This document shows, piece after piece, positions 921 to 60,413 of a DNA stretch of 64,000 nucleotides (positions are counted from its first letter, which is position 1; each line of letters begins with the position of its first letter). The stretch comes from Styela clava. Its lineage: Eukaryota. Position numbers and translations under genes: made by a program. Location: the NCBI RefSeq assembly GCF_964204865.1, contig NC_135257.1, forward strand, positions 13,392,001 through 13,456,000, in the 5' to 3' direction. The notes below the pieces were generated by a model. That model was not told where the DNA came from. It made no database searches and saw nothing but the letters and a program-made list of their open reading frames with translations.

Positions 921-2492
921 TCACTTCAAACTTTCCATCAACTCTGGATTTTCAACCGTTTTGGAAGGATAAAGTTGTACAATGATTCCTTTCTCAATGA
1001 GTTTGTTCCACATTAAACTAATTTGATGAATAGTTGGATTCAGGGTTGGAAATGCCACCCAGACAACCCATTCATCTGAAAAGATATTGATCCGATATCA
1101 ATACTGATATAAATCGCTCTAGGAATCTACACATATTCAATTGGTTTGTGTCACTTTTTTGAAATTTTGAAAGATTCGTTGTCTTATGTATAGCCTGGAG
1201 AGGAAAAAATAGTTTAGTCCGGTATTGCAGTTTTATAGTTGGTTGCTTTTCCCCCAATTTCCTTATGTGCAATGTGGTGCTACCTCCACTGGTGAGCAGG
1301 CATTCCTTGTGAATGAACGTCCTTGAATGTTTTTAAGTGGGTGATTTTAATTACTTACCGTACTCTTGAGTGAGTTTAATCCCTTATATTGTGAGTTCTA
1401 CCAATGCTACTGAGAGTAAATTGTCATTGAAACTAAATGAAAAGCGGAATAAAATACCTGAAAGACTGCAGAATGCATTGACCAAAAAATTCTTTTCGTC
1501 ACATAGAGCCAGAATATCACCATTGAATAAGGCATCATCTGAATATTAAAATGTTTTAACTTTTTGATTGTCAATGTATTTTACCATTGCCAATTTAATC
1601 TGTAAATTTAATTATACATTACCTATTTTTTTCGCTTTATCATTTGTTCCTCCATCTGGTGTTAGAGTGTGAGAAGCCAAAGCAGCTGGTTCTGTATCAA
1701 AATATTGAATTTTTTATTTCATTTTACCTATATAGGTATATTTAAAAATAATACCTTCACTCATTTCCCCATAATAAACGCCGTCTCTTCGTTTGGTCGT
1801 ATGACTTGTAAAGGTTTGGGGAGGAGAACTGAAATAAAGTAAAATGTACAATTACATATCTTCTGGTTTTGAATGCAGCTTTGTTTGGGTTGGACACTGA
1901 ATAGTCTGATCTTTCAATTCAAATGTAACTAAATTCACTTGTATACTTTAGTTTAAATATTGCAGTGTTAAATCATTGCTTCGTTTTTTTTTCAACTCTT
2001 TTCAATTTCTTTGAAATATATTATAAACATACTTCTCATGTAAATCAGTATGCACCATTCGCATTCCTTCATTTGTATTGGAGATATTCCGTAATCTTAC
2101 ACCTATAACATCTTCTTTCATGATCTCATCGTTGGTGTGTAGCACCAAGTACCAGTCATTCTTTACCTGCGCACAATAATAAGAAAGCCGAGTTCAGTGA
2201 AGATGTTGAAATCTCCAGATATACCATTGGGAGTATGGGAGATGAATGTATTTGAAGTCCTAATGTTGTTTTAATCAAGTTTTTGAAAAAAAGTGTAAGC
2301 GGATAATGAATGTTTCATATATATTAAAGATTGATTGAAGGTTAGGGCTTTACTATTTAATTATATACATACTTTATCCCAGTCGATATCTTCATTGTTC
2401 TCTGGAATTTTACATTTTTTTGCCTGGTTAATCTCGATGCCTATAGCAAGCATCAAAAGTGAAATACGCAATATGTTCTTCATGGTCATCAT
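921..2492 (-). CDS. Secreted lipocalin-like protein, array copy A (6 exons, 210 aa)
   Basis: Manual splicing: exons 2492-2373, 2166-2033, 1828-1755, 1691-1623, 1538-1458, 1075-921; all GT-AG, phases 0,2,1,1,1, open frame of 633 nt. Protein MMTMKNILRISLLMLAIGIEINQA-KKCKIPENNEDIDWDK|VKNDWYLVLHTND...LALCDEKNFLVNAFCSLS|DEWVVWVAFPTLNP...MESLK*. It has a signal peptide and an SCR1-like DWDK-x(4)-WY motif, and is colinear exon by exon with the canonical lipocalin at 43465-45489. Confidence 0.85.
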
Positions 2493-4641
2493 TTTATTTT
2501 AAAGCTGCTAAATCTTAGTTTTAAAAACCACAATTTTATGTACTTTCCTAACCCTGAAAACTTTTAAAGTTTATTGGTGAATTATCCAAATTTACAGCAA
2601 TTTGTGAGATTTCAGAATTAGATTATGAATAATTGAATCGAAAAGTCAATAGATACTGTAGCAATAATATTTGAATCGGAAGAGTGCAATTGACATCCTT
2701 ATTTATCCAAGTCATAGAACAGACTGTCTGTTACAGGTCTTGCATTCTGTACATATATTGGTGTTGTGAAGATGTTAAAGTTCCTGAAGAAGGCAGTGTG
2801 AAACGAGTATCGTATTTTTTTGTTTTGTTTATACTGTCTGGCTATGTGGAACATGCATTGTTACTTGTAAGAGGAGGCTAAAGAGATCAATAGATTCACA
2901 TTTTCAAGAAAATGTTTATTCATTTGTCATTCATTCGATCCTTTTTCTGTACAAATTCGTAGAATTCTATTATATCCTAATTTTTGATGTTTTATCATTG
3001 TAGTGCTATTTACACACACTTATACATTTACAAATATAAGCTTTAATAGATATATATATATGTATACTATATCTAATGTACTGTGATTTCCACCCCAAAA
3101 ATATCAAACAACAATTCAGTATCAGTAAGTCTGCTATTTTTGAAAATATTATTCTTCTGTATGCACAGTACCATAATATTGGGTTTGAACTGCAAATTCT
3201 TTTTCTTTGTCCACTACCTACTTGTATCTTACCCACAAGGAAACTTTAAGGACATGATTGAATGACAGTGGCAATTTTTTTCAACTATCGGTGACCAAAA
3301 TATTTGACCTAACGTGTGCCGGTTTTGGACAATATGACAACTTATTGTAGACATGAAATTTGAAAAATACTTAATCTATTGGAATGGCAGAATAAATATG
3401 GCATAATGCATTGTTTAATTGTTTTACAATATACTTTGCCATTTTTTTAAAAGGCGTAAGTTAATTCGAATAAATCACAAACAATATTAAATCTTAGGTT
3501 CTAACATCGACATCTGGTTTTTGGTTTACATCCATTTATCAGGTCAACTCATAGGGTGCGAAAAATCATGAAATGTAAAAGAAACATGATGCGTTTGTCA
3601 AAAACTGAAGGTTTTTGCAATTAGAAAACGCCAGTAATTTTTGTGTGCTAACTAGATCATAAAACTGAAAATGCAAAAATGATGCAATAACGAGTCTTCG
3701 CAGTGACATATTCATCACTGTCCTAGTTCTGATTATGCCGACTACATTTACGGTGCTTGGTGCCTACTACTTTTATGTGTGCTTTGCAATCGAACGCAAG
3801 TATAACCTAACAAGAAAGATTCAGACGCAAGAGAAACTGCTTTTCTATGAATATTAAATTAGATATCCAAATTACAAAAATCGCCACATGGTGCGAAGAT
3901 GCATAAACTGAATTGCAGTAACAGATCCCCCAGATTCAGTTATTCGAATTGTCCGTTCCTAGTCAAGTCACTGCAATAAGATAAAAAAAAAAGGGAGTGG
4001 AATATTTATGTCCATCTCATGTTGGCTGTGCAACAAAGCCTTTTACTCAACTATATAGCATTAGCATATTAATATGAGGCAGACACAAGCAGAAAGACAA
4101 AAAGACTTCGATGAGAGAGGAGGCAGAAAGGGAACAATAGATTCACGTTTCCATGAACATGTTAATACATTTAGGGGCTTCATCCATCTTTTTTTGTACA
4201 AACATTTAAATTCTATCATATCTAGTGTTTTGAACATGTGTTTTTGATATACTGATATACTTCATATGTGTTTAATTGTACTTTACAGGATTTTATTACA
4301 GATCTTGAGATTTTTCAAACACTGATAACGAATTCCCAAGGTCGCAACAATAAGTATCAAAACTAAATACAATTAGGCATGTTTATCTCATATTTTTATG
4401 TTAATGGATTGACGTGGTATTTTAGAGTAGTAATGTTCTTATTTTGGCGCAAAAACCGCGAGTTAAGTTGGCCACAATTATATTGATATAGAAATGAATT
4501 TTAGATTCTCGTAGCTGTCATGAATTGAATATGTTACGCGACAAAAAAGTCGATATGCGCTGAAATAGTCGGCTATTTTAACGAGCTCGTAATTGCGTCG
4601 ACTGTTTCAGAAGGAAATGGGAATTTCCGTTTTTGAAAATT

Positions 4642-4677
4642 GAGTGAAATAAACCTTATAATTGTCAAGGTTAGCAT
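4642..4677 (-). pseudogene. 5' remnant of a lipocalin array copy (ATG and ~12 codons; gene body lost)
   Basis: Reverse strand reads ATG CTA ACC TTG ACA ATT ATA AGG TTT ATT TCA CTC, matching the start of exon 1 (copy D: MLTLKNITFISL). It is followed on + by the conserved upstream block (4680-5240). Exons 2-6 are absent from 3110-4640. Confidence 0.65.
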
Positions 4678-5622
4678 TATATTTTAAGGCTGCTGAAACT
4701 TAGTTATGAAAACTACAGAATTACATCTTTTATAACCCCGAAAATTCTAGGGTTGGTTGGTGAGTTATCCAAATCTATAGCAATTCATGATATTTTATAA
4801 TTCTGTTATGAATAGTTTCAACGAAAAGTCTGCACTCTACAGATATTCTAGCAATAATAGTTAAATCGGAAGTGTGCAATTGACATTCCTACTTATCCAA
4901 GTCATAGAACAGACTGTCTGTTCATGTTTTGCATTCTTTACATATATTTGTGCACTTGATGTTATATTTTTTGAAGGAGACAATGTGAAAACATATTTTT
5001 TTTTGTTTATACCGTCTGGCTATGTGGAACATGCATTGTTCCATGGAAGAGGAGGCAAAAGAGATCAAGAATATGTTTATTCATTTGTGCTTCATCCAAT
5101 CCTTTTTTTGTACAAATATTTAGAATTCTATCATATTCTAATTTTTGATGTTTTATCATTGTAGTGCTATTTACACACACTCATACAATTACAAATAGAG
5201 GCTTCACTATGTATATATATACTCTATCTAATGTACTGTGATATCCACCCCCAAAATATCAAACAACTATATTTTTGTTGAAATCTATTAACAATGAACT
5301 AAATTTTTATCTTATCTCATCAAATTGTGAAGGATAAAAATGAATTCCTCCGGTTTCAAATTGCAAACAATAGCGTTGAAACATTTGCATCATGTCTTCA
5401 TTGTATAATTTACAACTTGAATATAACACAACATAATAACAATGAAACTGAAAGAGACATGGCATAATACCTAAAATTCTATATAAAAGTACTCCAGTAG
5501 TTTTCTTACTGTCTTTATTTTTTTTAGAATATAATAGTTGTACTAAATAGTATACTGCAGTATTATAATTCTTATTAAATAGATCTGTGTTCATCGTTAT
5601 AACTCAGTATTGAATGATCTTG

Positions 5623-7285
5623 TCACTTCAAACTCTCCATCAACTCTGGATGTGCAACCGTTTTAGAAGGATAAAGTTGTACAACGATTCCTTTCTCAAT
5701 GAGTTTGTTCCACATTAAACTAATTTGATGAATAGTTGGATTCAGGGTTGGAAATGCCACCCAGACAACCCATTCATCTGAAAAGATATTGATCCGATAT
5801 GAATACTGATATAAATCGCTCTAGGAATCTACACATATTCAATTGGTTTGTGTCACTTTTTTGAAATTTTGAAAGATTTGTTGTCTTATGTATAGCCTGG
5901 AGAGGAAAAAATAGTTTAGTAGGGTATTGCAGTTTTATAGTTGGTTGCTTTTCCCCCAATTTCCTTACATGCAATGTGGTGCTACCTCCACTGGTGAGCA
6001 GGCATTCCTTGTGAATGAACCTCCTTGAATGTTTTTAAGTGAGTGATTTTAATTACTTACGGTACTCTTGAGTGAGTTTAATCCCTTATATTGTGAGTTC
6101 TACCAATGCTACTGAGAGTAAATTGTCATTGAAACTAAATGAAAAGTGGCATAAAATACCTGAAAGACTGCAGAATGCATTGACCAAAAAATTCTTTTCG
6201 TCACATAGAGCCAGAATATCACCATTGAATAAGGCATCATCTGAATATTAAAATGTTTTAACTTTTTGATTGTCAATGTATTTTACCATTGCCAATTTAA
6301 TCTGTAAATTTAATTATACATTAGGTACCTATTTTTTTCGCTTTATCATTTGTTCCTCCATCTGGAGTTAGAGTGTGTGAAGCCAAAGCAGCTGGTTCTG
6401 TATCAAAATATTGAATTTTTTATTTCATTTTACCTATATAGGTATATTTAGAAATAATACCTTCGCTCTTTTCCCTATGATAAACGCCGTCTCTTCGTTT
6501 GATCCTATGGCTTGTAAAGGTTTGGGGAGGAGAACTGAAATAAAGTAAAATGTACAATTACATATTTTCTGTTTTTAAATGCAGCTTTGATTTGGGTTGA
6601 ACACTGAAATGTCTAATCTTCCAATTCAAATGTAACTGAATTCACTCGTATACTTTAGTTTGAATATTGCAGTGTTAGGTCATTTCTTCAGTTTTTTTTT
6701 ATGAAACTTGTTTCAGGTCATCTGAAATAAATTATAAACTTACTTCTCATGTAATTCAGTAATCACCATTCGCATTCCTTCATTTGTATTGGAGATATTC
6801 CGTAATCTTACACCTATAACATCTTCTTTCATGATCTCATCGTTGGTGTGTAGCACCATATACCAGTCATCCTTAACCTGCACACAACAATTATATGGTT
6901 TGCAATTTCTACTGAATAATTTCATTATGCAATGAGAGTTTTTCTAAATCTCAACTTCTAACACCTGTGACGCATTTGGAAAGTCGAGTTCAGTGAAGAT
7001 GTTGAAATCTCCAGATATATTATTGTGAGATGAATGTATTTGAAGTCCTCATGTTGTCTTAATCAAATTTTTGAAAAAAATGTAAGTGGATAATGAATGT
7101 TCCTTCTATATTGAAAATTGACTGAAGGTACCGGTAAAGGTTTTACTATTTAAATATATACATACCTTATCCCAGTCGATGTCTTCATTGTTCTCAGGAA
7201 TTTTACATTCTTTTGCCTGGTTAATCTCGATGCCTATAGCAAGCATCAAAAGTGAAATATGAAATATGTTTTTCAAGGTCAGCAT
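5623..7285 (-). CDS. Secreted lipocalin-like protein, array copy B (6 exons, 210 aa)
   Basis: ATG at 7285 (MLTLKNIFHISLLMLAIGIEINQAKECKIPENNEDIDWDK), exon 2 VKDDWYMVLHTNDEIMKEDVIG..., TGA at 5623-5625. Same exon structure as copy A and frame intact. Confidence 0.85.
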
Positions 7286-8380
7286 TTTATTTTAAAGCTG
7301 CTAAATAACTTAGTTCTATAAACTACAAAATTATGTACTTTTATAACCCGGCAAACTTTTAGGGTTTGTTGGTGAGTTCTCCAAATTTACAGCAATTTGT
7401 GAGATTTTATAATTCTGTTATAAATAGTTTCAACGAATGGACTATAGATATTTTAGCAATAATATTTAAACCGGAAGTGTTCAATTGACATCCTTACTTA
7501 TCCAAGTCATAGAACAGAGTGTCCGTTCACATTTTGCATTCTGTACATATATTTATGCACTCGATGATGTAATATTTTCCAAAGAAGGCAATGTGAATAC
7601 GTAATTTTTTTGTTTATACTGTCTATTGTGAGATGATATTGTAATGTTTAGTGTCTGTTCACGTTTTGCATCCTGTACATATATTTGTGCACTTGATGAT
7701 GTTATATTTTCTAAAGAAGACTATGTGAATACATGATTTTTTTGTTTATACTGCCTGGCTATGTGGAACATGCATTGTTCCTTGGAAGAGGAGGCAAAAG
7801 AGATCAATAGATTCACATTTTCAAGAATATGTTTATTCATTTGTGCTTCATCCAATCCTTTTTCTGTACATGTAGAATTCTATCATATTCTAATTTTTAA
7901 AGTTTTATCATTGTAGTGCTATTTACTCACATTTATCCAATTACAGATATAAGCTTAAATGAATATATATATATATATACTCTATCTAATGTACTGTGAT
8001 ATCCACCCCCAAAATATCAAACCACTATATTTTTGTTTAAATTTATTAACAATGAAATAAAATCTTTAAATTATCTCATTAAATTAAGGACGATAAAGAT
8101 AAATTCCTCTAGTTCAAAATTGCAAACGATAGCGGTAAAACCTTTGCATCATCTCTTCATTGTATAATTTCCAACCTAAAGATAGCACAACATAATAACA
8201 ATAAAACTGAAAGGGACATGGCATAAGACCTAAAATTCCAACACAAAGTACTTCAGTAGTTTTCTTTCTGTCTTTTTTTTTCTAGAATATAATAGTTGTA
8301 CCGAATAGTATACTGCAGTGTTATAATTTTAAATAAATGGATTTCTGTTCAAGGGGATAACTTAGTATTGAATGATCGTG

Positions 8381-10016
8381 TCACTTCAAACTTTCCATAA
8401 ACTCTGGATGTTCAACAGTTTTAGAAGGATACAGTTGTACAATGATTCCTTTCTCAATGAGCTTGTTCCACATCAAACTAATTTGATGAATAGTTGGATT
8501 CAGGCTTGGAAACGCCACCCAGACAACCCATTCATCTGAAAAGAAATTGCCCCGATATAAATCGCTCTAGGAATATACATATATGCGATTGATTTGTGTC
8601 ACTTTTTTGAAATATTTGTTGTTTTATGTACAGCCTGGAGAGGAAAGCTTAGTCTGGTCCGTTATTGCACTTTTAGTTGGTTGCTTCCCCCCCCCCCCCC
8701 AAGTTCCACCTCACACGCAATGTGATACTACCTTCACTAGTGAGCAGGCATTCCTTGTGAATGAACCTCTCAAGTAACTGATTTTTATTACTTACTAATT
8801 ATATTACTTAGTCTTGAGTGAGTTCAATTTCCTTCATTGTGAGTTCTATCAATGCTACTGAGAGGGAATTGTCATTGAAACTAAATGAAAAGCGGCATAA
8901 AATACCTGAGAGACTGCAGAATGCATAGACCAAATAATTCTTTTCATCACATAGAACCAGATTATCACCATCGAATAAGGCATCATCTGAATATTAAAAT
9001 GTTTTAACTTTTGGAATGTCAATGTATTTACTACCATCATCAATATATTCTGTAAATTCAATTATACATTACCTATTTTTTTAGCTTTATTATTTGTTCT
9101 TCCATCTGGTGTTAGAGTGTGTGAAGCCAAAACAGCTGGTTCTGTATGAAAATAATAAATTTTTTATTTCTTTTTTCATTCCAACTATATAGGTATATTC
9201 AAAAATGATACCTTCGCTCTTTTCCGCAAAATAAACGCCGTCTCTTCGTTTGGTAAAATCGAATGTTAAGGTTTGGGGAGGAGAACTGAAATAAAGTAAA
9301 ATTTACAATTACATATCTGCTGCTCTGATTTGGTTTGGAAACTGAGTATTCTGATCTGTCAATTCAAATGTAACTCAATTCACTTGTATTACTTTAGTCT
9401 GAATATTGCGGACTTTGTGGTGTTAAGTAATTTGTCCAGTTTTATTTTTTGAACTTGTTTCAGGTTATTTCAAATAAATTATAAACTTACTTCTCATGTA
9501 AATCAATAACCACTATTCGCATTCCTTCATTTGTTTTGGTAAAATTCCGGAATTTTGCACCTATAACATCTTTTTTCATGACCTCATCATTAGTGTGTAG
9601 CCCCTGATACCAGTCATTCTTAACCTGCACACAACAATATGGTTTTCAATTTCTACTCAATAATTTCATTATGCACTGCGAGTTTTACCAAATCTCAACT
9701 TCTAACACCTGTGACACATTTGGAAAGTTGAAAGTTTGGAAAGATATATTATTGTGAGATAATTTTCTTGAAGTCCTAATGTTGTCTTAATCAAATTTTT
9801 GAAAAAAGTGTAAGCGGAAAATGAAAAATGTTTCAAATATATTAAAAATTGACTGGAAGTGAAGGTTTTACTATTTCATTATATAGGCCTACATACCTTA
9901 TCCCAGTCGATGTCTTCATTGTTCTCTGGAATTTTACATTCTTTTGCCTGGTTAATCTTGATGCTTATAGCAAGCATCAAAAGTGAAATACACAATATGT
10001 TTTTTAAGGTCTGCAT
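8381..10016 (-). CDS. Secreted lipocalin-like protein, array copy C (6 exons, 210 aa)
   Basis: ATG at 10016 (MQTLKNILCISLLMLAISIKINQAKECK...), exon 2 VKNDWYQGLHTNDEVMKKDVIGAKFRNFTKT..., TGA at 8381-8383. Frame intact. Confidence 0.85.
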
Positions 10017-10983
10017 TTTATTTTAAAGCTGCTAAATCTTAGTTTTAAAAATCACAAAATTATGTACTTTCATAAACCTGAAAACTTTTAAAGTTTGTTG
10101 GTGAGTTATCCAAATTTACAGCAATTTGTGAGATTTCAGAATTAGATTATGAATAATTGCATCGAAAAGTCAATAGCTACTGTAGCAATAATATTTGAAT
10201 CGGAAGAGTGCAATTGACATCCTCACTCATCCAAGTCGTAGAACAGACTGTCTGTTACAAGTCTTTCATTCTGTACATATATTGGTGTTGTGAAGATTTC
10301 ATATTTACCCAAAGAAGGCAGTGGGAAATGAGTATTTATTTTTTGTTTATACTGTCTGGCTGTGTTGAACATGCATTGTTCTTTGGAAGAGGAGGCAGAA
10401 GTGATCAATAGATTCACATTTTCAAGAAAATGTTTATTCATTTGTCATTCATCCAATCATTTTTCTGTACAAATATTTAGAATTCCATCATATATCCTAA
10501 TTTTTGATGTTTTATCATTGAAGTGCTATTACACACACCTATACAATTACAAATATAAGCTTTAATGGATATATATATATATACTCTATTTAATGTACTG
10601 TGATATCCACCCCCAAAATATCAAGCAACTATATTTTTGTTTAAATTTATTAACAATGAATTAAATTTTTATCTTATCTCATCAAATTGTAAAAATTAGA
10701 AATGAATTCCTTTAGTTTAAAATTGCAAACAAGAGCGTTGAAACATTTGCATCATGTCTTCATTGTATAATTTTCAACCTAATTATAGCACAACATAATA
10801 ACAATGAAACTGAAAGATACATGGAATAAGACCTCACATTCTATATAAAAGTACTCGCGTACTTTTCTTACTGTCTTTGTTTTTCTAGAATATAATAGTT
10901 GTACTAAATAATATACTGCAGTGTTATGATTTCTATTGAATGGATTTCTGTTCATGGTTATAACTTAGTATTGAATGATCTTG

Positions 10984-12609
10984 TCAGGTCAAACTTCCAT
11001 CAACTCTGGATGTTCAACAGTTTTTGAAGGATAAAGTTGTACAATGATTCCTTTTTCAATGAGCTTGTTTCACATTAAACTAATTTGATGAAAAGTTGGA
11101 TTCAGGGTTGGAAATTCCGCCCAAACAACCCATTCATCTGAAAAAACATCGAGCTAATATTAGGAATTTACATATATGCAAATGGTTTATGTCACTTGTT
11201 TGAAAGATTTGTTGTCCTATGTACAGCCTGGGAGGGAAAAATAGTCTGGTTAGTTATTGCACTTATAGTTGGTTGCTTTCCCCCTAATTTCCACCTCACA
11301 TGCAATGTGATACTACCTTCACTAGTGAGCAGGCATTTTTTGTGACTGTACCTACCAAGTGACTGATTTTTATTACCCACTAATTATAAAACTTACTCTT
11401 GAGTGAGTTTAATTCCCTCTATTGTGAGTTCTATCAATGCTGCTGAGAGCAAATTGTCATTGAAACTAAATGAAAAGTGGCGTAAAATACCTGAAAGACT
11501 GCAGAATGCATAGACCAAATAATTCTTTTTATCACATAGAGCCAGAATATCACCATTGAAAAGGCGTCATCTGAATATTAAAATGTTTCAACTTTTTGAA
11601 TGTCAATGTATCCATCACCATTCACCAATCTAATATACAAATTCAATTATACATTACCTATTTTTTAGCATTATTATTTGTTCCTCCTTCTGGTGTTAGA
11701 GTGTGTGAAGCCGAAACAGCTGGTTCTGTTTCAAAATATTGAATTCTTTATTTATTTTCGTTACATTTTAACTATATAGGTATATTTAAAAATGATACCT
11801 TCGCTCTTTTTTCCGTAATAAACGCCGTCTCTTCGTTTGGATGATTCGATTGTAAAGGTTTGGGGAGGAGAACTGAAATTAAGTAAAATGTACAATTACA
11901 TATCTTCTATTTTTGAATGCAGCTATGATTTTGGTTGGACACTTGAGTAGTATGATCTGCCAATTCGAATGTACGGTAACTGAATTCACTTGTATACTTT
12001 AGTTTGAATATTGCAGTGTTAGGTCATTTCTTCAGTTTCTTGTTTCAGGTCATCGGAAATATTTTATAAACTTACTTCTCATGTAATTCAGTAATCACCA
12101 TTCGCATTCCTTCATTTGTTTTGGAGATATTCCGTAATCTTACACCTATAACATCTTTTTTCATGACCTCATCATTGGTGTGTAGCACCATATACCAGTC
12201 ATCCTTAACCTGCACACAACAATTATATGGTTTACAATTTCTACTGAATAATTTCATTATGCAATGAGAGTTTTGCTAAATTTCAACTTTTAACACCTGT
12301 GACACATTTGGAAAGTCGAGTTCAGGGAAGATGTTGAAATCTCCAGATATATTATTGTGAGATGGATGTATTTGAAGTCCTAATGTTGTCTTAATCAAAT
12401 TTTTGAAAAAAGTCTAAGCGAATAATGAATGTTGTATTTATTTTAAAAATTGATTGATTGAAGGTTTTACTATTTAATTATATACCTACCTTATCCCAGT
12501 CGATGTCTTCATTGTTTTCTGGAATTTTACATTCTTTTGCCTGGTTAATCTCAATGCTTATAGCAAGCATCAAAAGTGAAATAAATGTTATGTTTTTCAA
12601 GGTTAGCAT
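10984..12609 (-). pseudogene. Lipocalin array copy D, probable pseudogene
   Basis: Exons 1-3 are intact. Relative to copies A-C there is a 1-nt deletion in exon 4 (6 vs 7 T at ~11661), a 1-nt deletion in exon 5 (~11560), TGG->TGA at 11070-11072 in the ancestral frame, and a further 1-nt deletion near the stop. Confidence 0.8.
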
Positions 12610-12674
12610 TTGTTTTAAAGCTGCTAAATTCTAGTTCTATCAACTATAAAATTAAATATTTTCATACCCTAGTT

Positions 12675-13525
12675 CAGTGGTCTTCAAACTTTTTGAGACA
12701 CGACCCCATCTACAATATTATTACGTATGATAAGCACTCGCATCCCGAGTTATATACATATATATGTTCACCTACAGACACGAAAAAAATATTTATCAAA
12801 TTCGGAAATTTATTAAAAGAACCCAACAACAACCATATTTATTCAGTGTGAAGAATGCGACTGCTTCTTTCCAACGAGATCTTGCATTCGTGGCTTAATG
12901 TTGCTTAAGGTCAAACGCAAATCCTGTTCTACGTTTAATCGATTTCGGTGCTTTGATTTAGGCAGACTCATAGCACTAAAAGTCAAGCTTTCAAAAAGAT
13001 TGATCATACGATATTTTTCTTTTATGTTTATCAGCCATTTAATAAATTGTAATTATCAATATGACGGTAGGCTGGAAAATGAGGCTTTGCAGTAAAAGCA
13101 ACGGCCACTGTACAGTACATTTAAGACACAATAACGATTTACTTTAAAATATAAATTACTGTCGTTAAGCAATAGCCTTTTTATAAAAGAAGTCACTCCA
13201 ATTCGAAATATTGAAACTTGCTAGCCTATGTAGCGTTATTCAACTTAACAGTGCAGACTACACGCTGTTGTGTATTTGTGTCATAGAACGCTGTTTTTCA
13301 CACGGACTAAATTTGTGATTATGATGTCATAATTGATTTATCGTAATTGCTCTTGGTATTACCTGCTTGTTATTCATATTTTTGCTTGAAGTATCTAGCG
13401 TTTAGCCGAGAAGTCACACACATAATAAAAATAATAAAAGAAATGACAACGATGGGCACTCGGCACCCCAGAAATATATAAGGCGACCCCACTTGGGGTC
13501 GCGACCCACACTTTGGTGACCACTG
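12675..13525 (-). mobile_element. Non-autonomous hAT (Buster/Charlie-type) element with a transposase C-terminal remnant
   Basis: TIRs CAGTGGTCTTCAAAC / CTTTGGTGACCACTG; perfect 8-bp TSD CCCTAGTT (12667-12674, 13526-13533) with central TA. The minus strand at ~12990-12844 encodes ...FSAMSLPKSKHRNRLNVEQDLRLTLSNIKPRMQDLVGKKQSHSSH*, typical of Buster/ZBED5/SCAND3 transposase C-termini. Confidence 0.9.
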
Positions 13526-15911
13526 CCCTAGTTGATTGTGATATTTCAGAATTATTTTATGCATATTCGCAATGTCTAAAAAAGTTTATACACATACTGT
13601 AGAAATACTATTCAAATCGGAAGAGTGCAATTGACATCCCTATATATCCAAGTCCTAGTACAGACTGTCCGTTACAAGTTTTGCATTCTGTACATATAAT
13701 TGTGCACTTGATGACGTTATATTTTATAAGAAAGCAGTGTGAAATAAGTATTTTTTTGTTTATATTGTCTGGCTATGGGGAACATGCAAAAGAGATCAAT
13801 AGATTCACATTTCCAAGAATATGTATATTCATATGTGCTACATCTACCGTAATTCTTTCCTGTACAAGTATGTAATTTAATCGTATCCCAATTTTCAATG
13901 TTTCATCATTGCAGTGCTATTTCTTAGGGATGGGACGAGATTCGGACTCGAATTTCGAGTCCACGTCATTTTTACTGAGTTCCGATTCAATTCTCTTTTT
14001 ATTGATTGACGCTTGGGTTATGCGAGTTCACCTTCATAAAAGTCAGTATATGCAATATTTGAATGAAAAAATGTGAATCTTCACTTAAGCTCTCTAAAAA
14101 TATTGTACATGTCGTATCACAGGCTCTTATCAGACAAATTTAATTCATTTCATCGCTAATGACCACATACCACATTAACCAATAAATTACTCTTCGCACA
14201 CAAAATAGAAAGTGGAGCACCCCAAGGGAAATTCTATTAACACTATTTCCAAGTACAGCGCGTTCCATTTTGCTGTAAACACCTTTAAATCGGTGTTATG
14301 ATAATTCCTTTTTTGTACTTGCACGTAACGTGAGAGTCATTATATAATCATAGGTGATGAGATAAATAAAGGGGTGAATTTGCAAGCCAAATTTTCCACT
14401 TTGAAAAGCGTTATTATAAAATACTAACTAAAATGAAAAATTATCGTTTTATTTAAAAAAGGAATTTTTTGAGGTTTTACACCATATTAACTAATATTTC
14501 AGTGTAGTGTAGTTTACAGGCTTCAGAAAGCAATGACTTGTACCAACTGTATCATAAAATGACTTGATCACCTGTCTGTGTGTGCAGATGTACATGGGTA
14601 CAATTGAACTGGGTCAAATTTAAATGAGGGAAAATGTCAGCAGGTGCATATGTATGTCTGTGCAAATGTCTGCTGGTGCGAATACCTATGGGTGCAAACA
14701 ATCATGAATGCAAATGTCTGTGAGTGCAATCTTATATGGGTGTTAATGTGTTTGTTCAATTGTCAATGGATGAGAATGTCCGCAGGTACAAAAGTATAGA
14801 ATGTCCGCAGGTACAAAAGTATACAGTTGCTGTTGTTCTAGGTGCAGTTAATGGTACCGATATAAGTATGTGGGTGCAAAGCTTTTTTTTTGGTATAATA
14901 ACCATTTTGGGTAAATGATGTTATTTTGTGATGAAATGTTTAAGAAAATATTACAAAAGATGTACCGTAATATCATTTTTGTTTATACTTGCAAAATATG
15001 TGGCAAAATCTCTATGACATACCGGTAATAGCATGGTGATCATAAAGCTGACCCCTGAAGTAATCAATAAATTTGGGAAGCTCTTTGTTGTTAATTTGAT
15101 TTGTGTATCTAAAAGACTTTAATACTTCCTTGTGCACTTCATGATTATTGCATCTCAGTTGTTGGAATTTTATCTTATACCCAATCTGATATTTTTATTT
15201 TTTATAAATGCAAGATTATGAAAATCTTTTGACTTTCTTATTTTTTTTAAGTCAACTTCTCTACATCTACTTTCAACTATCCTTCTAAAGAAGTATTCAC
15301 ATAAACTTTGAATTTTCAAGTTATTTGTAGCTTCACTATATTCATCCATGATAATGTAGTTGAATATCACCTGCCCACTAAATATTATATTGCCTCGAAA
15401 ATACATATTAAAGTTTGGATATTTTTGCCTATCTCTAGCTAGGAAACTTTTGCCATTTCCAAAACTCATCTTCATATTTTAGCCTACCTATTTCAACTAA
15501 ATAACTTTTGCCACTCCCATATTATCTCATCTCCCATCATTTGCGGGAATATAATTGAAATGACAAATATTGATTTTCTATTTAAATATGTCGCCTGTGA
15601 TAAATACCATTATGGAATTTAAAAAGAAAATATTTTCTCTGACAAACATACACCTTGTTCTATGATTGTGTTGCGTAATCTATTTTCATTTTAAGCTCAA
15701 AAATGTACTTTAATGGTCATTATTCAAGGAAAAACTTTCTACAAATTTGATTATCCGAAGCAATAAATTTTTGAACTTGTTTCAATTATGATAATCATAT
15801 TATTAAACATTAGAGCGCAATTGTGAATACAGTTAAAATAGTAAATTTCACCAAATTTCTGTTTCCTAATTTACGAAAAATGTGGATTATAATGAATTAC
15901 TTTGCTTACAG

Positions 15912-18900
15912 GATAAAGAATATTTGCAAAAGCAGCTCAATGATGCAACAGCTAAATTGGACACCAGTTCTGAATTGTTGAAGAGAACAGAAGATCAGTT
16001 AGAAAATGCAAAGAAAGCTCGAGAAGAATTGTATGAGAAATATGTTTCATCCAGAGATGAAAATAGACTTGAATACGAGAGAAGACTGCAAACAGAATTG
16101 GATAGAATACGGTAAGTTTTTTTATATGACATATTTATGACCCTGAAATCTAACCCCAAATCCATCAAAACTGTATCCATAAAAAAAATATTCCAACTTA
16201 CCCAATATTTTTCACCATCAGGGGCAGCCCTGTCCTTACACCGACCTGCCGTGGTTACGGCACCAAAATTTTACCCGCCATTGGTTTTCAATTTGCTGTC
16301 GCGTTAACGGCAGCTCATCATTGTTTGTGCCAGCTAAAAAGTGAGTTGCCATAAGTTTAGCCATAGCGGCCAGCCATGGTTTGGAAATACCGCCATGGTT
16401 TTGCGGCAGCTTCAGAGGCATTGAAATACTTAAAGCTGCACTTGCAGTATGGAGCACTTTGAGAACTTATGTCCTACCCAATTTATTACACTTTAGCTGA
16501 GGTGCATGGGATTTTAATCTGCGATGCTAAAATAGTTATATTTATCGCTTTAACAACTAGGCCACCACTCCCACTTGAAATCATTATTAATAGAGTATTA
16601 CTGAATCAATTATAGTTAGTCCATAGATGAGAAAAATTTGTATCAATAATTGAATATTAAATACAGAGCATAGCCCAAGATAGTGTGAATTAGAGTAAAC
16701 AGAATATAAAAAAAATGAAATTTAAGTGGACTGAATTTTCAATGTTATCCTGGCGATTTACACCAACCCTAAGTATTTTTAGAAAAATTGATATCAAACA
16801 GCGTAAAAATGCTGTTTTAAGATAGATTGTGGATTGGGAAAAATTTACAATTGACCTTGGTTCCAAGTTTATTAAAAATTTTTACTCCAGCTCTGATTTC
16901 CTAATGAAATAAAATTTTTATAATGAATGTTTGGGCGTGCACCAGCCTTTTTTAATAGACTGTTATGAATTATGACCTCAATTATTATTGTAAAAGGCGG
17001 AAATTCCAACTCTCACGTCTGACTCTGTGGATTTCAAATTTTGCTATAGAAAGTTTTAGAATGCGGCTCTGGGTTTTATTCCAATGAAAACATGTCAAAC
17101 TTTCGACTCTGCAGCGCCGGTTTTTAAGTGTGACTCGTATCTAATAATATACTTTTCCTATTAATTAATATACCAGGATGCAGACTGATACTGAAATTGG
17201 TAAACTTCAGACTGATACGAAAGAATCATATGAAAGAGAGAATCGTGGTTTACGCGAGGCAAGAGATTTGGCCAATCAAGAACGCGATCAGGTATTGTAG
17301 TACTTGGGTAAATTTTCTACTGTTCCGATCATTGATAATTAAGTTTGGCATATATGTTATAAACGTATGGGGAGTGTAGACATTCATTTTCATCACTTGA
17401 TGGATCTAAATTTAGAATATTCCCTTTTCATTGGCTTGACTTGTCCAGAATTGAAACTTGTTTTGGACTTTATTTGAGTATTTTTTTTTAATGTTCATTT
17501 TTTTGCATTGGTTGCCCCTCTTGCCATCTTAATCACCGATCATCGAACCAATATTTTTCCCAAACCCACTATATCGTAATAAATATTTTGCTTGGAGATC
17601 ATTCTCCTTCATTTCTGAGTGAGTGCGTGACCATGTTTCGAGCAAATTTTTTTAATATCCGATTACATAAAAATCCTACTTAATTTTTTCGTGCTTCTGA
17701 TATATCTCAAGTTACTCATCTTGGATGATCATAACCATCTGTAACTGCATAATAGTATTTACTAGGAACAAATGGAATAAATAAAAGCTCAATATCTTTT
17801 GTTAAAAAAATTAAAATTACAATTGATGTTTTTTCCAGGCCGTAAAGTTTAGGGACGAAGCCGAGAAACGAAGTGAGAAGTATCTATCTGAACTCCGAGC
17901 TTTAGAAGCCAGTGTGGATTCTCGAATTAGTGATTTCCAAAATGAAGCTCGGACAAAATCATTTGAACTTGATAGGCTACAAGTGAGTAACATGAATTGG
18001 GTGTTCAATTTAATCAACGTCATGTTTTCCGTTCACAAGACTACCATGTCTAGGTTTTTAAGTAGGTCTTGTTGGACACAAAGTGTGTATTGTGTATATG
18101 TATAAGTTTCTGAAATTGGGACCTATGGTGTAAATGCTTTAAGATGAATAGATGGACATAAAGATGACAGCTTAGATTAATAAACTCAAAATATTATTTT
18201 TCAATTCTGCTTTTAACTTTAATTCAATTTTCCAGAAGTTTCATTTTGTTCTGAGTTAAACCTAAACAATATTTTGAATGTAAAATTGAATCTTACTATT
18301 TTTAGTTAATGTACGAAGAAACAAGCAAAAATCTTCTCAAGTCAAATGAAGATTGCGAAAGATTGAATAAAAAACTGGAGATTGTCACATTGGATTATAC
18401 TGAGTTAGAAAAAAGATCATCAGTCACAGAAACCGAACTCAAATCGGCAATCAGGGAAGCAGAAGCTAGATTGACATCATATGAAAAAATGGAAAAGGTA
18501 ACGAGGCAAATTTATGGCTTGAAATCGAAACATTTTGATGAGGTATGCAAATGATGTGCACCTACAAAACAGATTGGAAATTGATTGCTCAGTCTGGCCT
18601 AAATAATTGGAAAAAGTGGTGAATTTTATGAATTCTTCTTGCAGTTAAATGAACATAGGAAAGTAGTTTGGTATATCAGTGGTTCCTGACCTTTTTCAGC
18701 GCTATTGATCTCCTTGATAATTTTATTAGGTTTGGGTACCCTTCTTAATAAAAACAAGTAGTCTCGGCTTGAAACATTATTTTATCAAAATCGCACAAAG
18801 AAAGCGAAGACACTCAAAATTTAAAGGGTGATATAAGATGTGCTCTGTCAAAAATTCCTTGCATAGTTGAGGTACCCAAGACCAAATATTATTAGTAAAC

Positions 18901-21421
18901 ATGCCATGACAACCTGATTGAAATGAATAAAACCAATCAATCGCCCATATAAACAAGGTTTTGTGTAATTTGTGCATTTTTTTTTCTAGGAACTTGATGA
19001 TGTTGTGATGCAAGCAGCAGAGGTTGAAGAAGATGATGAAACAGCAGAGAGAGTTCTTTTCTCATATGGATATGGTGCTAATGTTCCCATCAATGCAAAA
19101 ATGAGAATGAAACAGAGTGTGCATTTGGCTCGCAGGTGTGTGTTTTTGACAATTCTTGTTTACTATGTGATCAACCAATAAGCCTAATTTGAGCTCTTCT
19201 GTTTTAAAAAAAATTCTAGGTTTCTTGTTTGCAATTGCTACTACACATACCTGTACTTATGTGTCTAGTTTTAATTTAATACATTGCACTGAATATCTAA
19301 ATAATGGTGACATAACATTTTTATAAATGTTCGACTGCGCTAATGCAAATACGGATTGCCGTCTGCAAGTTAGGGTATTGGTGATATCAAATTGATAACA
19401 ATTCTTGAATTATTGGTATTATGTAGCGTTATTTGTCAGAATTTATTTGCCGCTTTTTCAAATTTATTACAATGTCGGTGTTTCAATTTATAATAGAATT
19501 CTGCAACTGGAGAAGTTGAATACAAGCCTACATGCTGAGATACAAATAAAAGAAAGAGAAATGAAGAAGGTTTGTGATCTTTCCAGTTGCCATAACCCAA
19601 TCATGTAAACATCTTCCATGATTTAGTGACTCAAATATATTAATGCCTCGTGGTTTAGAAAATGCAGGTCATATTTTTTTGATACACGAGGCTTATTCGT
19701 TCAATGTACTTTGAACAAGGCGCTACTGATATTTAAAGAGCAACTAATATTTGGAAAAACAGGATTTGTTGTACTTTTGCATTACCTACTCAATCCATTA
19801 CTTTTGGTGAGGTGCATGGAATTTAAACCAAGATGTATAATCTGTGGTGCTGAAAGTATGCCGCTTCAATGATAGGGCATCATGCTCATCTATAATGATG
19901 ATGTATGAAAGGATTGCTTGACTCCCCTCATTGCAAGGTTGTTCACTGCTGCATGCTTGCTTTATTGCATCATAATTACATGTCTGGAAAATAACTATTC
20001 CCATTGATATAAAATTCATACCCTGAAACACTGATACTTTACTTTTGTTACAGATTAGCCTACAGCTGGAAAATGCGGAGAACCTGATTGATCAATGCAA
20101 ACAACCGTACAGTTATCTAATAGAGGGAATGCAACAACGTGACTTGGAAATTTCATCGCTGAAAAAAACTTTGTCCAAACTTGAGAATGATTTTGATGAA
20201 AAAGATAAAGAAAATAAACATGTTGGTTTTTATTTCAAGAACTAGGTTAAGTATGATCACTGAAGTTCTAAGTGTGAAATTCATACCAAATTTTTATCAC
20301 CATGCAGTTGCGAAGGGGTGAATTACCGAATTAGTCACAGACCACTGAAGAGAAGTACTTCTAGAAAAATAATTTTTGCCCAAGGTTGTTTTGAGACTCT
20401 GTATTTTCTGTATCTATGTACTTCTGCAACAAATCACCACTGACATACTTGTATTTCTGCAACGATTCACCACCGACACAGATGTATTTCTCCAACGGTT
20501 CACCACTGACACAGATGTGTGTCTGCAACAATTCACCACTGACACACATGTATTTCTCCAACGGTTCACCACTGACGACACGCATGTATTTCTGCAACAA
20601 ATCACCACTGACACACATGTATTTCTGCAACGATTCACCACTGACACAGATGTGTTTCTGCAACAAATCACCACTGACACACATGTATTTCTGCAACGAT
20701 TCACCACTGACACAGATGTGTTTCTGCAACAAATCACCACTGACACACATGTATTTCTGCAACGATTCACCACTGACACAGATGTGTTTCTGCAACAAAT
20801 CACCACTGACACACATGTATTTCTGCAACGATTCACCACTGACACAGATGTGTTTCTGCAACGATTCACCACCGACACACATGTATTTCTCCAACGGTTC
20901 ACCACTAACACAAATGTATTTCTGCAACAATTCACCAATTACACAAATGTATTTCTGCAGCAATTCACCACTGACACAGTATTTGTGCAACAATTCACCC
21001 CTGACCAGCGAATTTCTCAAATCACATTGATTCAAATAACAACAAATGGGTTATCAATCACACACGCACAACCGCTGAGATGTGAACTTTTCTATCAAAA
21101 AATTTTCTTTTTCAGCTACTTGATGTTCGGAAGAAGTTGTCATTGGATTTGGATAAATTACTCAGTCATAGACAAGAGATGGCTGTAATGCGACAAGTTG
21201 TGAAAGGTTTAACACAGCAGAAGTTTTCCCCTGAAGATGGGAATGTTCTGGCTGCACTCGATTCCAACAAAAATACTAATTTGAAATTGACTTCTCATGA
21301 TGATAGCAGAAGCGATAAACAACTATCAGTTTCAGCACTACGACCTGCACCAGTTGTTTTCACTAAAGAACGAAATCTTAGATTTGATCCGCAACAATAC
21401 AAGAAGTTCAACTCGTCTTAA
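15912..21421 (+). CDS. PIBF1: Progesterone-induced blocking factor 1 (CEP90) homologue, 3' eight exons; 5' part not in window
   Basis: Exons 15912-16111, 17177-17291, 17839-17982, 18306-18497, 18990-19135, 19497-19569, 20054-20221, 21116-21421 splice in frame. Diagnostic peptides DKEYL...[44 protein letters not shown]...[41 protein letters not shown] match the C-terminal half of vertebrate PIBF1. Confidence 0.93.
20414..21002. repeat. 33-bp minisatellite (~18 units, alternating 66-bp dimer) in the last PIBF1 intron
   Basis: Unit ~TTTCTGCAAC(G/A)A(T/A)TCACCACTGACACA(C/G)ATGT(A/G); accounts for the four overlapping 11-aa-repeat ORFs. Confidence 0.95.
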
Positions 21422-34117: not shown

Positions 34118-37100
34118 ACCAAAGTTACCGTACCCCAGCCCACACTCGCTCAGCCCACACTCAGCCTGACGTCAAGGGGTTAACCAACTATTTTACTGAC
34201 TTTATAAACGTAATTACATAAAAACTTGGTGACTCTGACAATATAGAGACCATATCTGATATACACAACGCAAATACAATACCAAGCACGGCCCAGTTAC
34301 CCCTAGTATGGCCTGACAAAAACGAGTGTGGGCCAGCGTCACACGAGTGTGGGCTACTGGCATCCCACGAGTGTGGGCTAGCGTCACACGAGTGTGGGCT
34401 GACGTTCTGACAATGTTTCACCGTAAGTTAAGGCATCCTAAACGTTCACAGATTACTAAATTACATATATCCATGTTTAACTCAGCGCCAGAACCTCTCA
34501 AAGTCCGGCAATTGATGGCACAAAATAGCCACAATTGCCGGGAAAATGAATCAAAATCAGCTGAACTATGATATCTCTAATCACTGTTGCCAGATATATA
34601 GGTGGACAAGCATGAATTCACAGGAAGGTTTCACAACAAAAAAAATTTATATTTAAGCGAAATATCAAACCTATTCATTTCCATCAATAAGAATGAGGTA
34701 TGAACAAATCGAATCTGATTTGCACAAATACATCTTTTAGAATGAAGATTGAACAAGCAAATTCAAAAGCAAATTAAGTAACATTTACCCAAAGAGATAC
34801 ATTGTCTTGATGGCTTTGAAGTATGATTTCGGCACTTCTAATACTTTGTACGCCATGTAATCGACTTATTACATTATATATCCAATTATACAACAAATAA
34901 CGAAAAATTCAAAAATTCTACCGGGGGGAAAGACTTTGAAAAAAAAAAAATCTACCTATGTATAAAGATAATCCTATTTCCCGACAATGGTATTTTATGA
35001 CAAAATGCAACAAAGAATTGAAACTTTTCTATTAATTTGTACATTATATAGTGAATTATCTTACAAATAGTAAAAAATGAAAAAAAATTTACCGGGGGGG
35101 AAAGACTTTAAAATAAAACCGGAATCTACCTATATCTGACGATAATCATAATTCCCGATAATAGTATTTTATGACAAAATGCAACAAGAAATTGAAATTT
35201 TTCTATTTGTTTGTACATCACGAAATTTGCTTATTATATTATATAATGAATTATCTTACAAATATCGAATATTAAAAAAATTCTACCGGGGGAAAGACTT
35301 TAAAATAAAACCGGAATCTACCTATGTCTAACGATAACGGCACTATGTAATATGATAAGAAATTTTCGTGATGTACAAATTGATAGAAAAGTTTTAATTC
35401 CTTGTTGCATTTTGTCATAAAATACCATTATCGGGAATTATGATCATCGTTGACCGTAGGTAGATTTCGGTTTTATTTTTAAAGTCTTTCCCCGGTAGAA
35501 TTTTTTTTATTTTTTAGTATTTATAACATGAGTCACTATTTTATATAATAGACAAATTTCGTGATGTACAAATTGATAGAAAAGTTTCAATTCCTTGTTG
35601 CATTTTGTCATAAAATACCATTATCGGGAATTATGATTATCGTTAGACATAGGTAGAATCCGGTTTTACTTTAAAGTCTTTCCCCCCGGTAGAATTTTTT
35701 TATTTTTCAGTATTTATAAGACGAGTCACTATTTTATATAATAGGCAAATTTCGTGATGTACAAAAACGATAGAAAAGTTCCAATTCCTTGTTGCATTTT
35801 GTTATAAAATACCATTATCGGGAATTATAATTATCGTTAGACAGAGGTAGATTCCGGTTTTATTTTAAAGTCTTTCCCCCCGGTGGAATTTTTTTTATTT
35901 TTCAGTATTTATAAGATGAGTCACTATTTCATATAATAGGCAAATTTCGTGATGTACAAATTGATAGAAAAGTTTCAATTCCTTGTTGCATTTTGTCATA
36001 AAATACCATTATCGGGAATTATGATTATCGTTAGACATAGGTAGATTCTGGTTTTATTTTAAAGTCTTTCCCCCTGGTATATTTTTTTCAATATTTGATA
36101 TTTGTAAGATAATTCATTATATAATATAATAAGCAAATTTCGTGATGTACAACCTAATAGAAAAGTTTCAATTCCTTGTTGCATTTTGTCATAAAATATC
36201 ATTATCGGGAAATATGATTATCGTTAGACATAGGTAGATTCCGGTATTATTTTGAAGTCTTTCCCCCAGGTAGAATTTTTTTATTTTTTAATATTTGTAA
36301 GATAATTCACTATGTAATATAATAAGCAATTTTCGTAGTGTACAAATTGATATAAAAGTTATAATTTATTGTTGCATTTTGTCATAAAATACCATTATCG
36401 GGAATTATGATCATCGTTAGACATAGGTAGATTCCGGTTTTATTTTTAAAGTCTTTCCCCCAGATAGAATTTTTTTATTTTTCAGTATTTATAAGATGAG
36501 TCACTATTTTATATAATAGGCGAATTTCGTGATGTACAAATTGATAGAAAAGTTTCAATTCCTTGTTGCATTTTGTCATGAAATACCATCATCGGGAATT
36601 ATGATTATCGTTAGACATAGGTAGATTCCGGTTTTATTTTAAAGTCTTTCCCCCCTGTAGAATTTTTTTATTTTTCAGTATTTATAAGATGAGTCACTAT
36701 TTTATATAATAGGCAAATTTCGTGATGTACAAAACGATAGAAAAGTTTCAATTCTTTGTTGCATTTTGTCATAAAATACCATTATCGGGAATTATGATTA
36801 TCGTTAGACATAGGAAGATTCCGGTTTTATTTTAAAGTCTTTCCCCCCGGTAGAATTTTTTCAATATTTGATATTTGTAAGATAATTTACTATATAATAT
36901 AATAAGCAATTTTCGTGATGTACAAATTGATGGAAAAGTTTCAATTCCCTGTTGCATTTTGTCATAAAATACCATTATCGGGAATTATGATTATCGTTAG
37001 ACATAGGTAGATTCCGGTTTTATTTTAAAGTCTTTCCCCCCCCCCCCCCGTAGAATTTTTTTAATATTCGATATTTGTAAGATAATTCATTATATAATAT

Positions 37101-60323: not shown

Positions 60324-60413
60324 AATGCTTTATTGATAAAATTAGTTCAACAGTATTTATAAAATATAAAAAAAAAAATGAATGGCTGAGTATTGAACTG
60401 TCACTGACATAAC

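What the first reader, a model, noticed from the sequence alone, without database searches (positions are those of the whole stretch)
1755..12208. Amino-acid variation among the lipocalin copies concentrates in short patches
Seen: the exon 3 segment reads FTSHTTK (A), FTSHRIK (B), LTFDFTK (C), FTIESSK (D), followed by YYGEM / YHREK / YFAEK / YYGKK. Exon 2 gives WYLV / WYMV / WYQG and MVHTDL / MVITEL / IVVIDL. Flanking residues (SPPQT, KRRDGVY) and much of exons 4-6 are nearly invariant. Inference: these patches map to barrel strands that could line the calyx, suggesting diversifying selection on ligand specificity.
Basis: partly seen in the sequence, partly recalled or inferred. Interest (0 to 1): 0.7.

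Follow-up and report, generated by a model that had tools for sequence, protein, structure and literature searches.

The report
Sea-squirt lipocalin copies diversify pocket residues
Four tandem copies of an unannotated sea-squirt gene, predicted to encode secreted lipocalins (barrel proteins that bind small molecules), differ most at positions inferred to line the binding pocket, with one codon changing faster than neutral, which likely reflects copies tuned to different, still unknown ligands.

Summary
The patches are real. They lie in four tandem six-exon genes (minus strand) of the ascidian Styela clava, by RefSeq hits. The fold is an ApoD/bilin-binding-protein-like lipocalin (AlphaFold pLDDT 93; Z 14.4 to ApoD; HMM E 1e-9), with a predicted two-helix insert and no Pfam hit. 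Three corrections: copy D is a pseudogene (three 1-base deletions, one stop). Copy B is a recombinant, and Z/A/B share near-identical 3' halves, which inflates the invariance of exons 4-6. Only 9 of the 15 patch residues are inferred to face the pocket. With recombination-aware codon models (my own code), dN/dS above 1 is robust at one site, codon 95 (0 of 2165 neutral simulations reach it); without it the test fails (p=0.22). Pocket-facing sites evolve faster than outward ones: 1.65 vs 1.05 in seven close copies (p=0.08), 0.67 vs 0.35 in eleven diverged paralogs (p=9e-5). Those paralogs show no dN/dS above 1 once multi-base mutations are modelled. Best reading: pocket-focused diversification in a birth-and-death family, as in rodent MUP/SAL1 lipocalins. 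The more novel point is a hidden expansion of dozens of such genes, against one lipocalin reported for Ciona. Ligand unknown.

The parts
921..2492 (-). Copy A, intact, 210 aa. Coding exons 2492-2373, 2166-2033, 1828-1755, 1691-1623, 1538-1458, 1075-921; intron phases 0,2,1,1,1
   Evidence: same protein as RefSeq P0001; contigs of a guessed-RNA run join 1075/1458 and 1538/1623
5623..7285 (-). Copy B, intact, 210 aa. Exons 7285-7166, 6877-6744, 6534-6461, 6397-6329, 6240-6160, 5777-5623. Recombinant: D-like 5' part, A-like 3' part
   Evidence: RefSeq P0021; MaxChi-type test 0 of 300 permutations
6535..6743 (-). Intron 2 of B: inferred crossover or conversion breakpoint
   Evidence: share of A-type sites 0.34 left, 0.88 right, n=177
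8381..10016 (-). Copy C, intact, 210 aa. Exons 10016-9897, 9624-9491, 9285-9212, 9141-9073, 8986-8906, 8535-8381
   Evidence: RefSeq P0027; joint 8986/9073 in two guessed-RNA runs
10984..12609 (-). Copy D, pseudogene in this assembly: 1-base deletions in exon 4 (codon 130), exon 5 (codon 136), exon 6 (codon 207) and a stop at codon 182 (11072-11070)
1795..1812 (-). Strand D patch, codons 91-96 of A (B 6518-6501, C 9269-9252, D 11856-11839)
1798..1800 (-). Codon 95 of A, the one site with robust dN/dS above 1 (B 6506-6504, C 9257-9255, D 11844-11842); residues T, R, F, S, and K in neighbouring copy Z; aromatic or hydrophobic in most of 35 distant relatives; inferred to face the deep half of the pocket
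1762..1773 (-). Strand E patch, codons 104-107 of A (B 6479-6468, C 9230-9219, D 11817-11806)
2044..2058 (-). Strand C patch, codons 77-81 of A (B 6769-6755, C 9516-9502, D 12101-12087)
2143..2148 (-). Strand A patch, codons 47-48 of A, just after the conserved Trp-Tyr (B 6859-6854, C 9606-9601, D 12191-12186); 47 aligns with bilin-binding-protein residue 28
1623..1691 (-). Exon 4 of A: most of a predicted two-helix insertion (residues 107-138) between strands E and F
   Evidence: model secondary structure

Best explanation
The window holds four tandem, recombining copies (three intact, one broken) of a gene predicted to encode a secreted ApoD-like lipocalin, and their differences are enriched at positions inferred to line the pocket, most likely because selection has tuned duplicated copies to different small-molecule ligands, with codon 95 as the main switch. 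Shown: gene structure, tandem array, pseudogene D, mosaic B, clustering of differences, dN/dS well above 1 at codon 95 under my codon models, faster evolution of inward than outward strand positions across the wider family. Predicted: eight-stranded barrel with a two-helix insert. Inferred: which residues face the cavity (from alignment to solved lipocalins and hydrophobic alternation, not from coordinates); secretion (hydrophobic N-terminal helix, no signal-peptide predictor run); that unequal crossover copies and shuffles 5' halves (strands A-E) against homogenised 3' halves. Untested: any ligand. The inferred pocket is polar (H50, D/E81, H83, Q89, residue 95, N/Y153), so polar or charged small molecules are more likely than plain lipids.
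For: Fold: pLDDT 93.4, pTM 0.85; top 40 rows at Z>=8 are lipocalin-type folds, ApoD Z 14.4, rmsd 3.0, 149 aligned; family HMM hits DigA16 1.8e-9, crustacyanin 6.8e-9, BBP 8.2e-9, ApoD 5.6e-7. In/out parity on strands B-D: mean hydropathy +1.38 vs -1.10 in 35 distant relatives. Selection with three segment trees plus introns, 7 close copies: M1a/M2a LRT 16.8, p=2e-4; p=0.002 with multi-base mutations; p=0.004 with D's codons masked. Codon 95 site LR 26.2, reached in 0 of 2165, 0 of 1762 and 3 of 1991 neutral simulations (no, mild, strong rate variation). Single-tree LRT 17.6 vs maximum 6.5 in 36 recombining null sets. Fixed classes inward/outward/rest: 1.65/1.05/0.30, 1.88/1.10/0.30 with D masked (inward=1 rejected, p=0.016); diverged 11 paralogs 0.67/0.35/0.28, p=9e-5, and p=0.0015 with multi-base mutations. 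Eight sites picked in the diverged set give dN/dS 3.0 in the close set (p=0.0005-0.0015). None of the window copies' codon-95 residues (T, R, F, S) occurs at that site in the 11 diverged paralogs, so they were not imported from those. Residue 95 is the same in matched C9 copies under older RefSeq accessions: differences are between copies, not alleles.
Against: Without codon 95: M1a/M2a p=0.22; inward class 1.36, p=0.24; cross-picked sites 1.9, p=0.07-0.08. Inward vs outward in close copies only p=0.083, 0.052 with D masked. In the diverged set the dN/dS>1 class (p=0.028) vanishes with multi-base mutations (LRT 0), codon 95 there drops to 1.6 (p=0.36), and the inward class as a whole is below 1. 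Exon 3 overall has pN 0.154 vs pS 0.160 among A-D. Five residues at some codon among seven copies arises in 24% of 400 neutral simulations. The next-ranked sites after 95 (143, 106, 166) are outward. Outward strand sites at about 1.05 suggest general relaxation in the close copies. Models are my own implementation with naive empirical Bayes; many tests were run without correction; the in/out list was drawn after I had seen the alignments; recombination was not modelled in the diverged set.
Confidence: 0.58

Rival explanations
1. Relaxed constraint plus sequence exchange: redundant young copies drift almost neutrally on strands A-E, exchange homogenises the 3' halves, and the patches are what neutral change and short conversion tracts leave behind.
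For: D is dead; B is mosaic; PHI-like p=0.009; exon 3 pN equals pS, and introns differ by about 0.13; outward strand dN/dS about 1.05; 8 sites with LR>2.7 vs null mean 4.1-7.4, p=0.05-0.47; no signal left without codon 95.
Against: Codon 95 exceeds recombining neutral simulations; non-strand sites stay at 0.30; inward sites are twice as fast as outward ones in diverged paralogs, which general relaxation does not predict, though relaxation confined to the pocket would.
Confidence: 0.27
2. Selection acts on a protein-binding surface (receptor, microbe or complement-like partner) formed by strands B-E, not on the small-molecule pocket.
For: 6 of 15 patch sites are outward; 143, 106, 166, 66 rank next after 95 in close copies; 66, 76, 92, 61 are fast in the diverged set. 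In SAL1 lipocalins most selected sites point out of the pocket (PMC3128046, section read).
Confidence: 0.1
3. The patches are a mutational artefact: multi-base mutations, CpG decay or micro-inversions in a quasi-palindromic stretch at codons 92-96.
For: Multi-base mutation terms improve the diverged-set fit by 16 log units and remove its dN/dS>1 class; several codon-95 states contain CpG.
Against: In close copies the fitted double-hit rate is 0.002 and the test stays significant; Z, A and B differ at codon 95 by three different single bases at position 2; intron rates in segments 1-2 show little heterogeneity.
Confidence: 0.05

Closest known systems
ApoD / bilin-binding protein / crustacyanin lipocalins
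   Same: Eight-stranded barrel, C-terminal helix and ninth strand; N-terminal Cys27 and strand-G Cys156 align with BBP C8 and C115; distant Styela relatives keep the strand-B Cys too
   Different: About 13% identity; the Gly of the GxW motif is replaced; the strand-B and C-terminal cysteines are lost in this subfamily; a predicted two-helix insert of about 30 residues lies between strands E and F; no Pfam match
Mammalian SAL1/OBP and mouse MUP gene clusters
   Same: Tandem lipocalin paralogs with pseudogenes, gene conversion and positively selected sites, some in the pocket (PMC3128046: abstract and one results section; PMC2533699: passages)
   Different: Different lipocalin clade and phylum; no pheromone role shown here; here the fast sites lean inward, whereas most SAL1 sites point outward
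Tick and triatomine salivary lipocalin expansions
   Same: Large lineage-specific expansions of divergent secreted lipocalins (search listings only); they appear among fold matches
   Different: Those serve blood feeding (recalled); the ascidian function is unknown
Amphioxus Ambp/ApoM/Ptgds/Rbp4-like gene and vertebrate ApoM/Ptgds
   Same: Six coding exons with intron phases 0,2,1,1,1 (PMC3184775, passage; here)
   Different: Here intron 4 falls in the insert and intron 5 in the G-H loop; from recalled vertebrate gene structures these are not the usual positions, so the match of the last two phases may be coincidence (not tested)

Membership tests
Lipocalin (calycin superfamily) | Eight-stranded antiparallel barrel followed by a helix and a ninth strand | tested here: met
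   Model strands 45-50, 60-70, 74-83, 89-99, 102-105, 141-145, 151-156, 162-168, helix 175-187; Z 14.4 to ApoD, 40 chains at Z>=8; Foldseek top rows all lipocalins (first model)
Lipocalin (calycin superfamily) | Sequence homology to known lipocalins | tested here: met
   49-sequence family HMM hits DigA16, crustacyanin, BBP, ApoD at E 1.8e-9 to 5.6e-7; the single protein alone finds none
Lipocalin (calycin superfamily) | Pfam PF00061/PF08212 above curated cut-off | tested here: not met
   0 of 6 subfamily proteins hit; 10 of 48 distant relatives hit PF00061 at E<=0.05, 1 above cut-off. A limit of the Pfam model, not of the fold
Kernel lipocalin | All three conserved motifs: GxW, TDY, and Arg after strand H (motif names recalled) | tested here: not met
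   W45-Y46 and D146 kept, but N/D-D-W for GxW, C/S-D-E/K for TDY, P169 aligned with BBP R133: an outlier-type lipocalin
Lipocalin (calycin superfamily) | Secreted (signal peptide) | tested here: inconclusive
   Hydrophobic helix 2-21 precedes the region that aligns with mature lipocalins; no predictor available
Lipocalin (calycin superfamily) | Binds a small ligand in the calyx | not testable with these tools
ApoD/BBP-like clade | Two disulfides (N-terminus to strand G; strand B to C-terminus) | tested here: inconclusive
   Cys27/Cys156 present in all 8 copies listed; second pair absent here but the strand-B Cys is in all 35 distant relatives; no phylogeny against canonical lipocalins was built
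Positively selected pocket-diversifying paralog cluster (SAL1/MUP type) | dN/dS above 1 at pocket sites after allowing for recombination | tested here: inconclusive
   Met for codon 95; not significant for the remaining sites

The most novel reading that the evidence does not exclude
Styela carries a hidden repertoire of dozens of secreted lipocalins with a helical lid, diversified by duplication, half-gene shuffling and selection on a pocket-floor switch residue: a natural anticalin-like library for recognising or scavenging many different small molecules, overturning the picture of one lipocalin in tunicates.
Probability: 0.25. Interest if true: 0.7.

Novelty: new variant of a known kind. 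Interest (0 to 1): 0.42.

Why it matters
Pocket diversification in duplicated lipocalins is known from mammals and blood-feeding arthropods, so the pattern itself is not surprising. What is new is the family: RefSeq calls these proteins uncharacterized, Pfam misses them, and a survey of chordate lipocalins found a single one in Ciona (PMC8420045, parts 1-2 of 4 read). Here 110 exon-level matches on 12 contigs and 50 clusters at 50% identity (18 of 20 looked up are named S. clava, 2 unnamed) point to a large ascidian expansion. Copies A, B and C are 82-92% identical yet differ at one strongly selected residue, which makes ligand-switch experiments directly feasible.

Tried and rejected
Pfam on single exons and whole proteins: no lipocalin hit. 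phmmer of copy A against PDB: nothing. Single-tree M7/M8 on 9 copies including the signal region (p=5e-5) not relied on: it ignores recombination and flags signal-peptide codons 8-9. Three-tree fits with free per-segment scale weaken the test for 8 intact copies (M1a/M2a p=0.095, M8a/M8 p=0.015). Counting residues at one codon is not a test (24% by chance). Import of patches from diverged C16 paralogs: not supported at codon 95. A possible seventh coding exon downstream of the stop: rejected, it carries frameshifting indels in B, C and D. No run is on record as RNA; the spliced contigs come from runs guessed to be RNA and cannot rank copies. Laying reads on exons 2-3 gave only 12 raw reads and mixed paralogs, so no allele frequencies; organisms B and C gave 3 and 1 records, no conclusion. 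No complex prediction: no partner to test. Literature: ten searches; none of the listings describes a Styela or tunicate lipocalin expansion, but subscription papers, including the S. clava genome paper and its supplements, were not searchable. BBP pocket positions beyond those visible are recalled. Three look-ups of earlier scan findings returned nothing. Rows left out of codon analyses: identical or near-identical C16 copies (a2, a5; a4 in the 7-copy set) and incomplete or broken C16 genes.
Full report
What is there. The window is G000:C9:13392001-13456000. Four tandem genes lie on the minus strand between 921 and 12609, each with six coding exons of 120, 134, 74, 69, 81 and 155 bases, GT-AG introns and phases 0,2,1,1,1. 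A, B and C encode 210 residues and equal RefSeq proteins named 'uncharacterized protein [Styela clava]'. D has 1-base deletions at codons 130, 136 and 207 and a stop at 182. A fifth copy, Z, lies just outside the window; five near-identical copies and about a dozen diverged genes lie on contig C16. Contigs from runs guessed to be RNA join across predicted introns of A-type and C-type copies; this shows spliced transcripts of the family, not levels.

Observation. Among A-D, 46 of 187 mature codons vary: 14 of 27 inferred inward strand sites, 13 of 39 outward, 19 of 121 others. Differences cluster (4-codon window at 93, p=0.0002; autocorrelation p=0.005); with D removed the window tests weaken to p=0.07-0.09 and autocorrelation stays at p=0.008. 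Exons 4-6 vary at 21 of 101 codons.

Fold. Pfam finds nothing. A profile search returned 50 clusters at 50% identity. A model from the 49-sequence alignment has pLDDT 93.4 and shows eight strands, a helix and a two-helix insert at 107-138, mostly exon 4. It matches ApoD at Z 14.4 (rmsd 3.0, 149 aligned), then Per a 4, crustacyanins and DigA16. The family HMM hits the same proteins at E 1.8e-9 to 5.6e-7. So this is a divergent ApoD/BBP-like lipocalin with altered kernel motifs.

Which residues face the pocket. Position 95 is mostly aromatic or hydrophobic in distant relatives but T, R, F, S or K here.

Recombination. B is D-like up to intron 2 and A-like after it (0 of 300 permutations); Z and A become identical from intron 4 on at informative sites; a PHI-like test gives p=0.009 (105 triplets scanned, top 14 permuted). 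Introns differ by about 0.13 and synonymous sites by 0.14 among A-D, but A-B introns 3-5 by only 0.00-0.03. The contrast 'variable front, invariant back' is therefore partly exchange. Purifying selection is still real: exon 6 has pN 0.04 against pS 0.17.

Selection. PAML and HyPhy were absent; I wrote GY94/F3x4 site models. For seven close copies with three segment trees fitted jointly to introns and codons, M1a vs M2a gives LRT 16.8 (p=2e-4), with codon 95 the only site assigned. This holds with multi-base mutations (p=0.002) and with D masked (p=0.004). The site likelihood ratio of 26.2 was reached by 0 of 2165 neutral simulations, 0 of 1762 with mild and 3 of 1991 with strong rate variation. 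Without codon 95 the test fails (p=0.22). Fixed classes give inward 1.65, outward 1.05, rest 0.30 (inward=outward p=0.083; inward=1 p=0.039); limiting classes to strands B-E, a later choice, gives 2.18 vs 1.02 (p=0.013). In eleven diverged C16 paralogs, which exclude the window copies, inward is 0.67 and outward 0.35 (p=9e-5; p=0.0015 with multi-base mutations; p=0.004 after dropping three doubtful genes). The dN/dS>1 class of the diverged set disappears when multi-base mutations are allowed, a known source of false positives (search listing only).

Alleles. Proteins under older RefSeq accessions, which I infer come from another assembly, keep the same residue 95 in matched C9 copies, add further K95 copies, and show R to W in one C16 copy. 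The D-like protein there reads through exon 5 and codon 182 but lacks exon 4, so D's decay looks progressive.

How it most likely works. Unequal crossover makes, shuffles and kills copies. The scaffold (helix, strands F-H, loops) is held by purifying selection and exchange. The walls and floor of the pocket on strands A-E change quickly, at codon 95 faster than neutral, likely giving copies different ligands; neighbouring outward residues vary near neutrally. Confidence 0.58. Relaxation plus exchange (0.27) explains everything except codon 95 and the inward bias; surface selection (0.10) and mutational artefact (0.05) fit less well.

Comparison and novelty. It works like SAL1/OBP and MUP clusters (PMC3128046, abstract and one section; PMC2533699, passages) but is not a member of those clades. 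A chordate survey reports a single lipocalin in Ciona (PMC8420045, parts 1-2 of 4) and amphioxus has six (PMC3184775, passages). Against that, one query finds 110 exon-level matches on 12 contigs (150 of 185 candidates scored), and 18 of 20 clusters looked up are S. clava proteins. Ten literature searches listed no description of this expansion; subscription papers were not covered. Verdict: observation confirmed, interpretation partly supported, new variant of a known kind, interest 0.42.

Noticed in passing
G000, 12 contigs: Large unannotated lipocalin-like family, including apparently intronless genes on C1, C4, C5, C6, C8, C13, C14 and multi-exon clusters on C16, C17, C19; one 544-aa relative (P0057) has several repeats and a clear PF00061 hit.
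   Followed up: partly
window 8381-12609: RefSeq isoform P0002 joins exons 1-3 of pseudogene D to exons 4-6 of copy C; either a read-mapping artefact or read-through splicing that would reuse D's pocket half.
   Followed up: no
L005, L006, L013 (C16:15.77 Mb and 16.08 Mb): Three copies with identical coding sequence, one about 300 kb away in the opposite orientation; the deepest spliced contigs laid on the window carry letters of this group.
   Followed up: partly
L009-L010 vs L016 (C16:15.81-15.82 Mb and 8.69 Mb): A block of several genes and gene fragments appears duplicated and inverted about 7 Mb apart (G9 and G13 nearly identical).
   Followed up: no
window 13539-13922 and 4643-4895: Partial copies of the upstream unit without coding exons; 12670-13530 and 2600-4640 look like inserted repeats.
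   Followed up: no
window 20343-21038: 33-base tandem repeat (about 20 units) with open frames on both strands, inside a + strand multi-exon coiled-coil gene (exons near 15900-21400).
   Followed up: no
window 34151-38218: Element with long inverted arms (554 bases, 98%) around a 194-base tandem array; looks like a foldback transposon.
   Followed up: no
window 58740-60329 (-): 530-codon single open frame, recalled as resembling the RED/IK splicing factor; not checked.
   Followed up: no
codons 8-9 of all close copies: Signal-region codons 8 and 9 also scored as fast (posterior 0.95).
   Followed up: no
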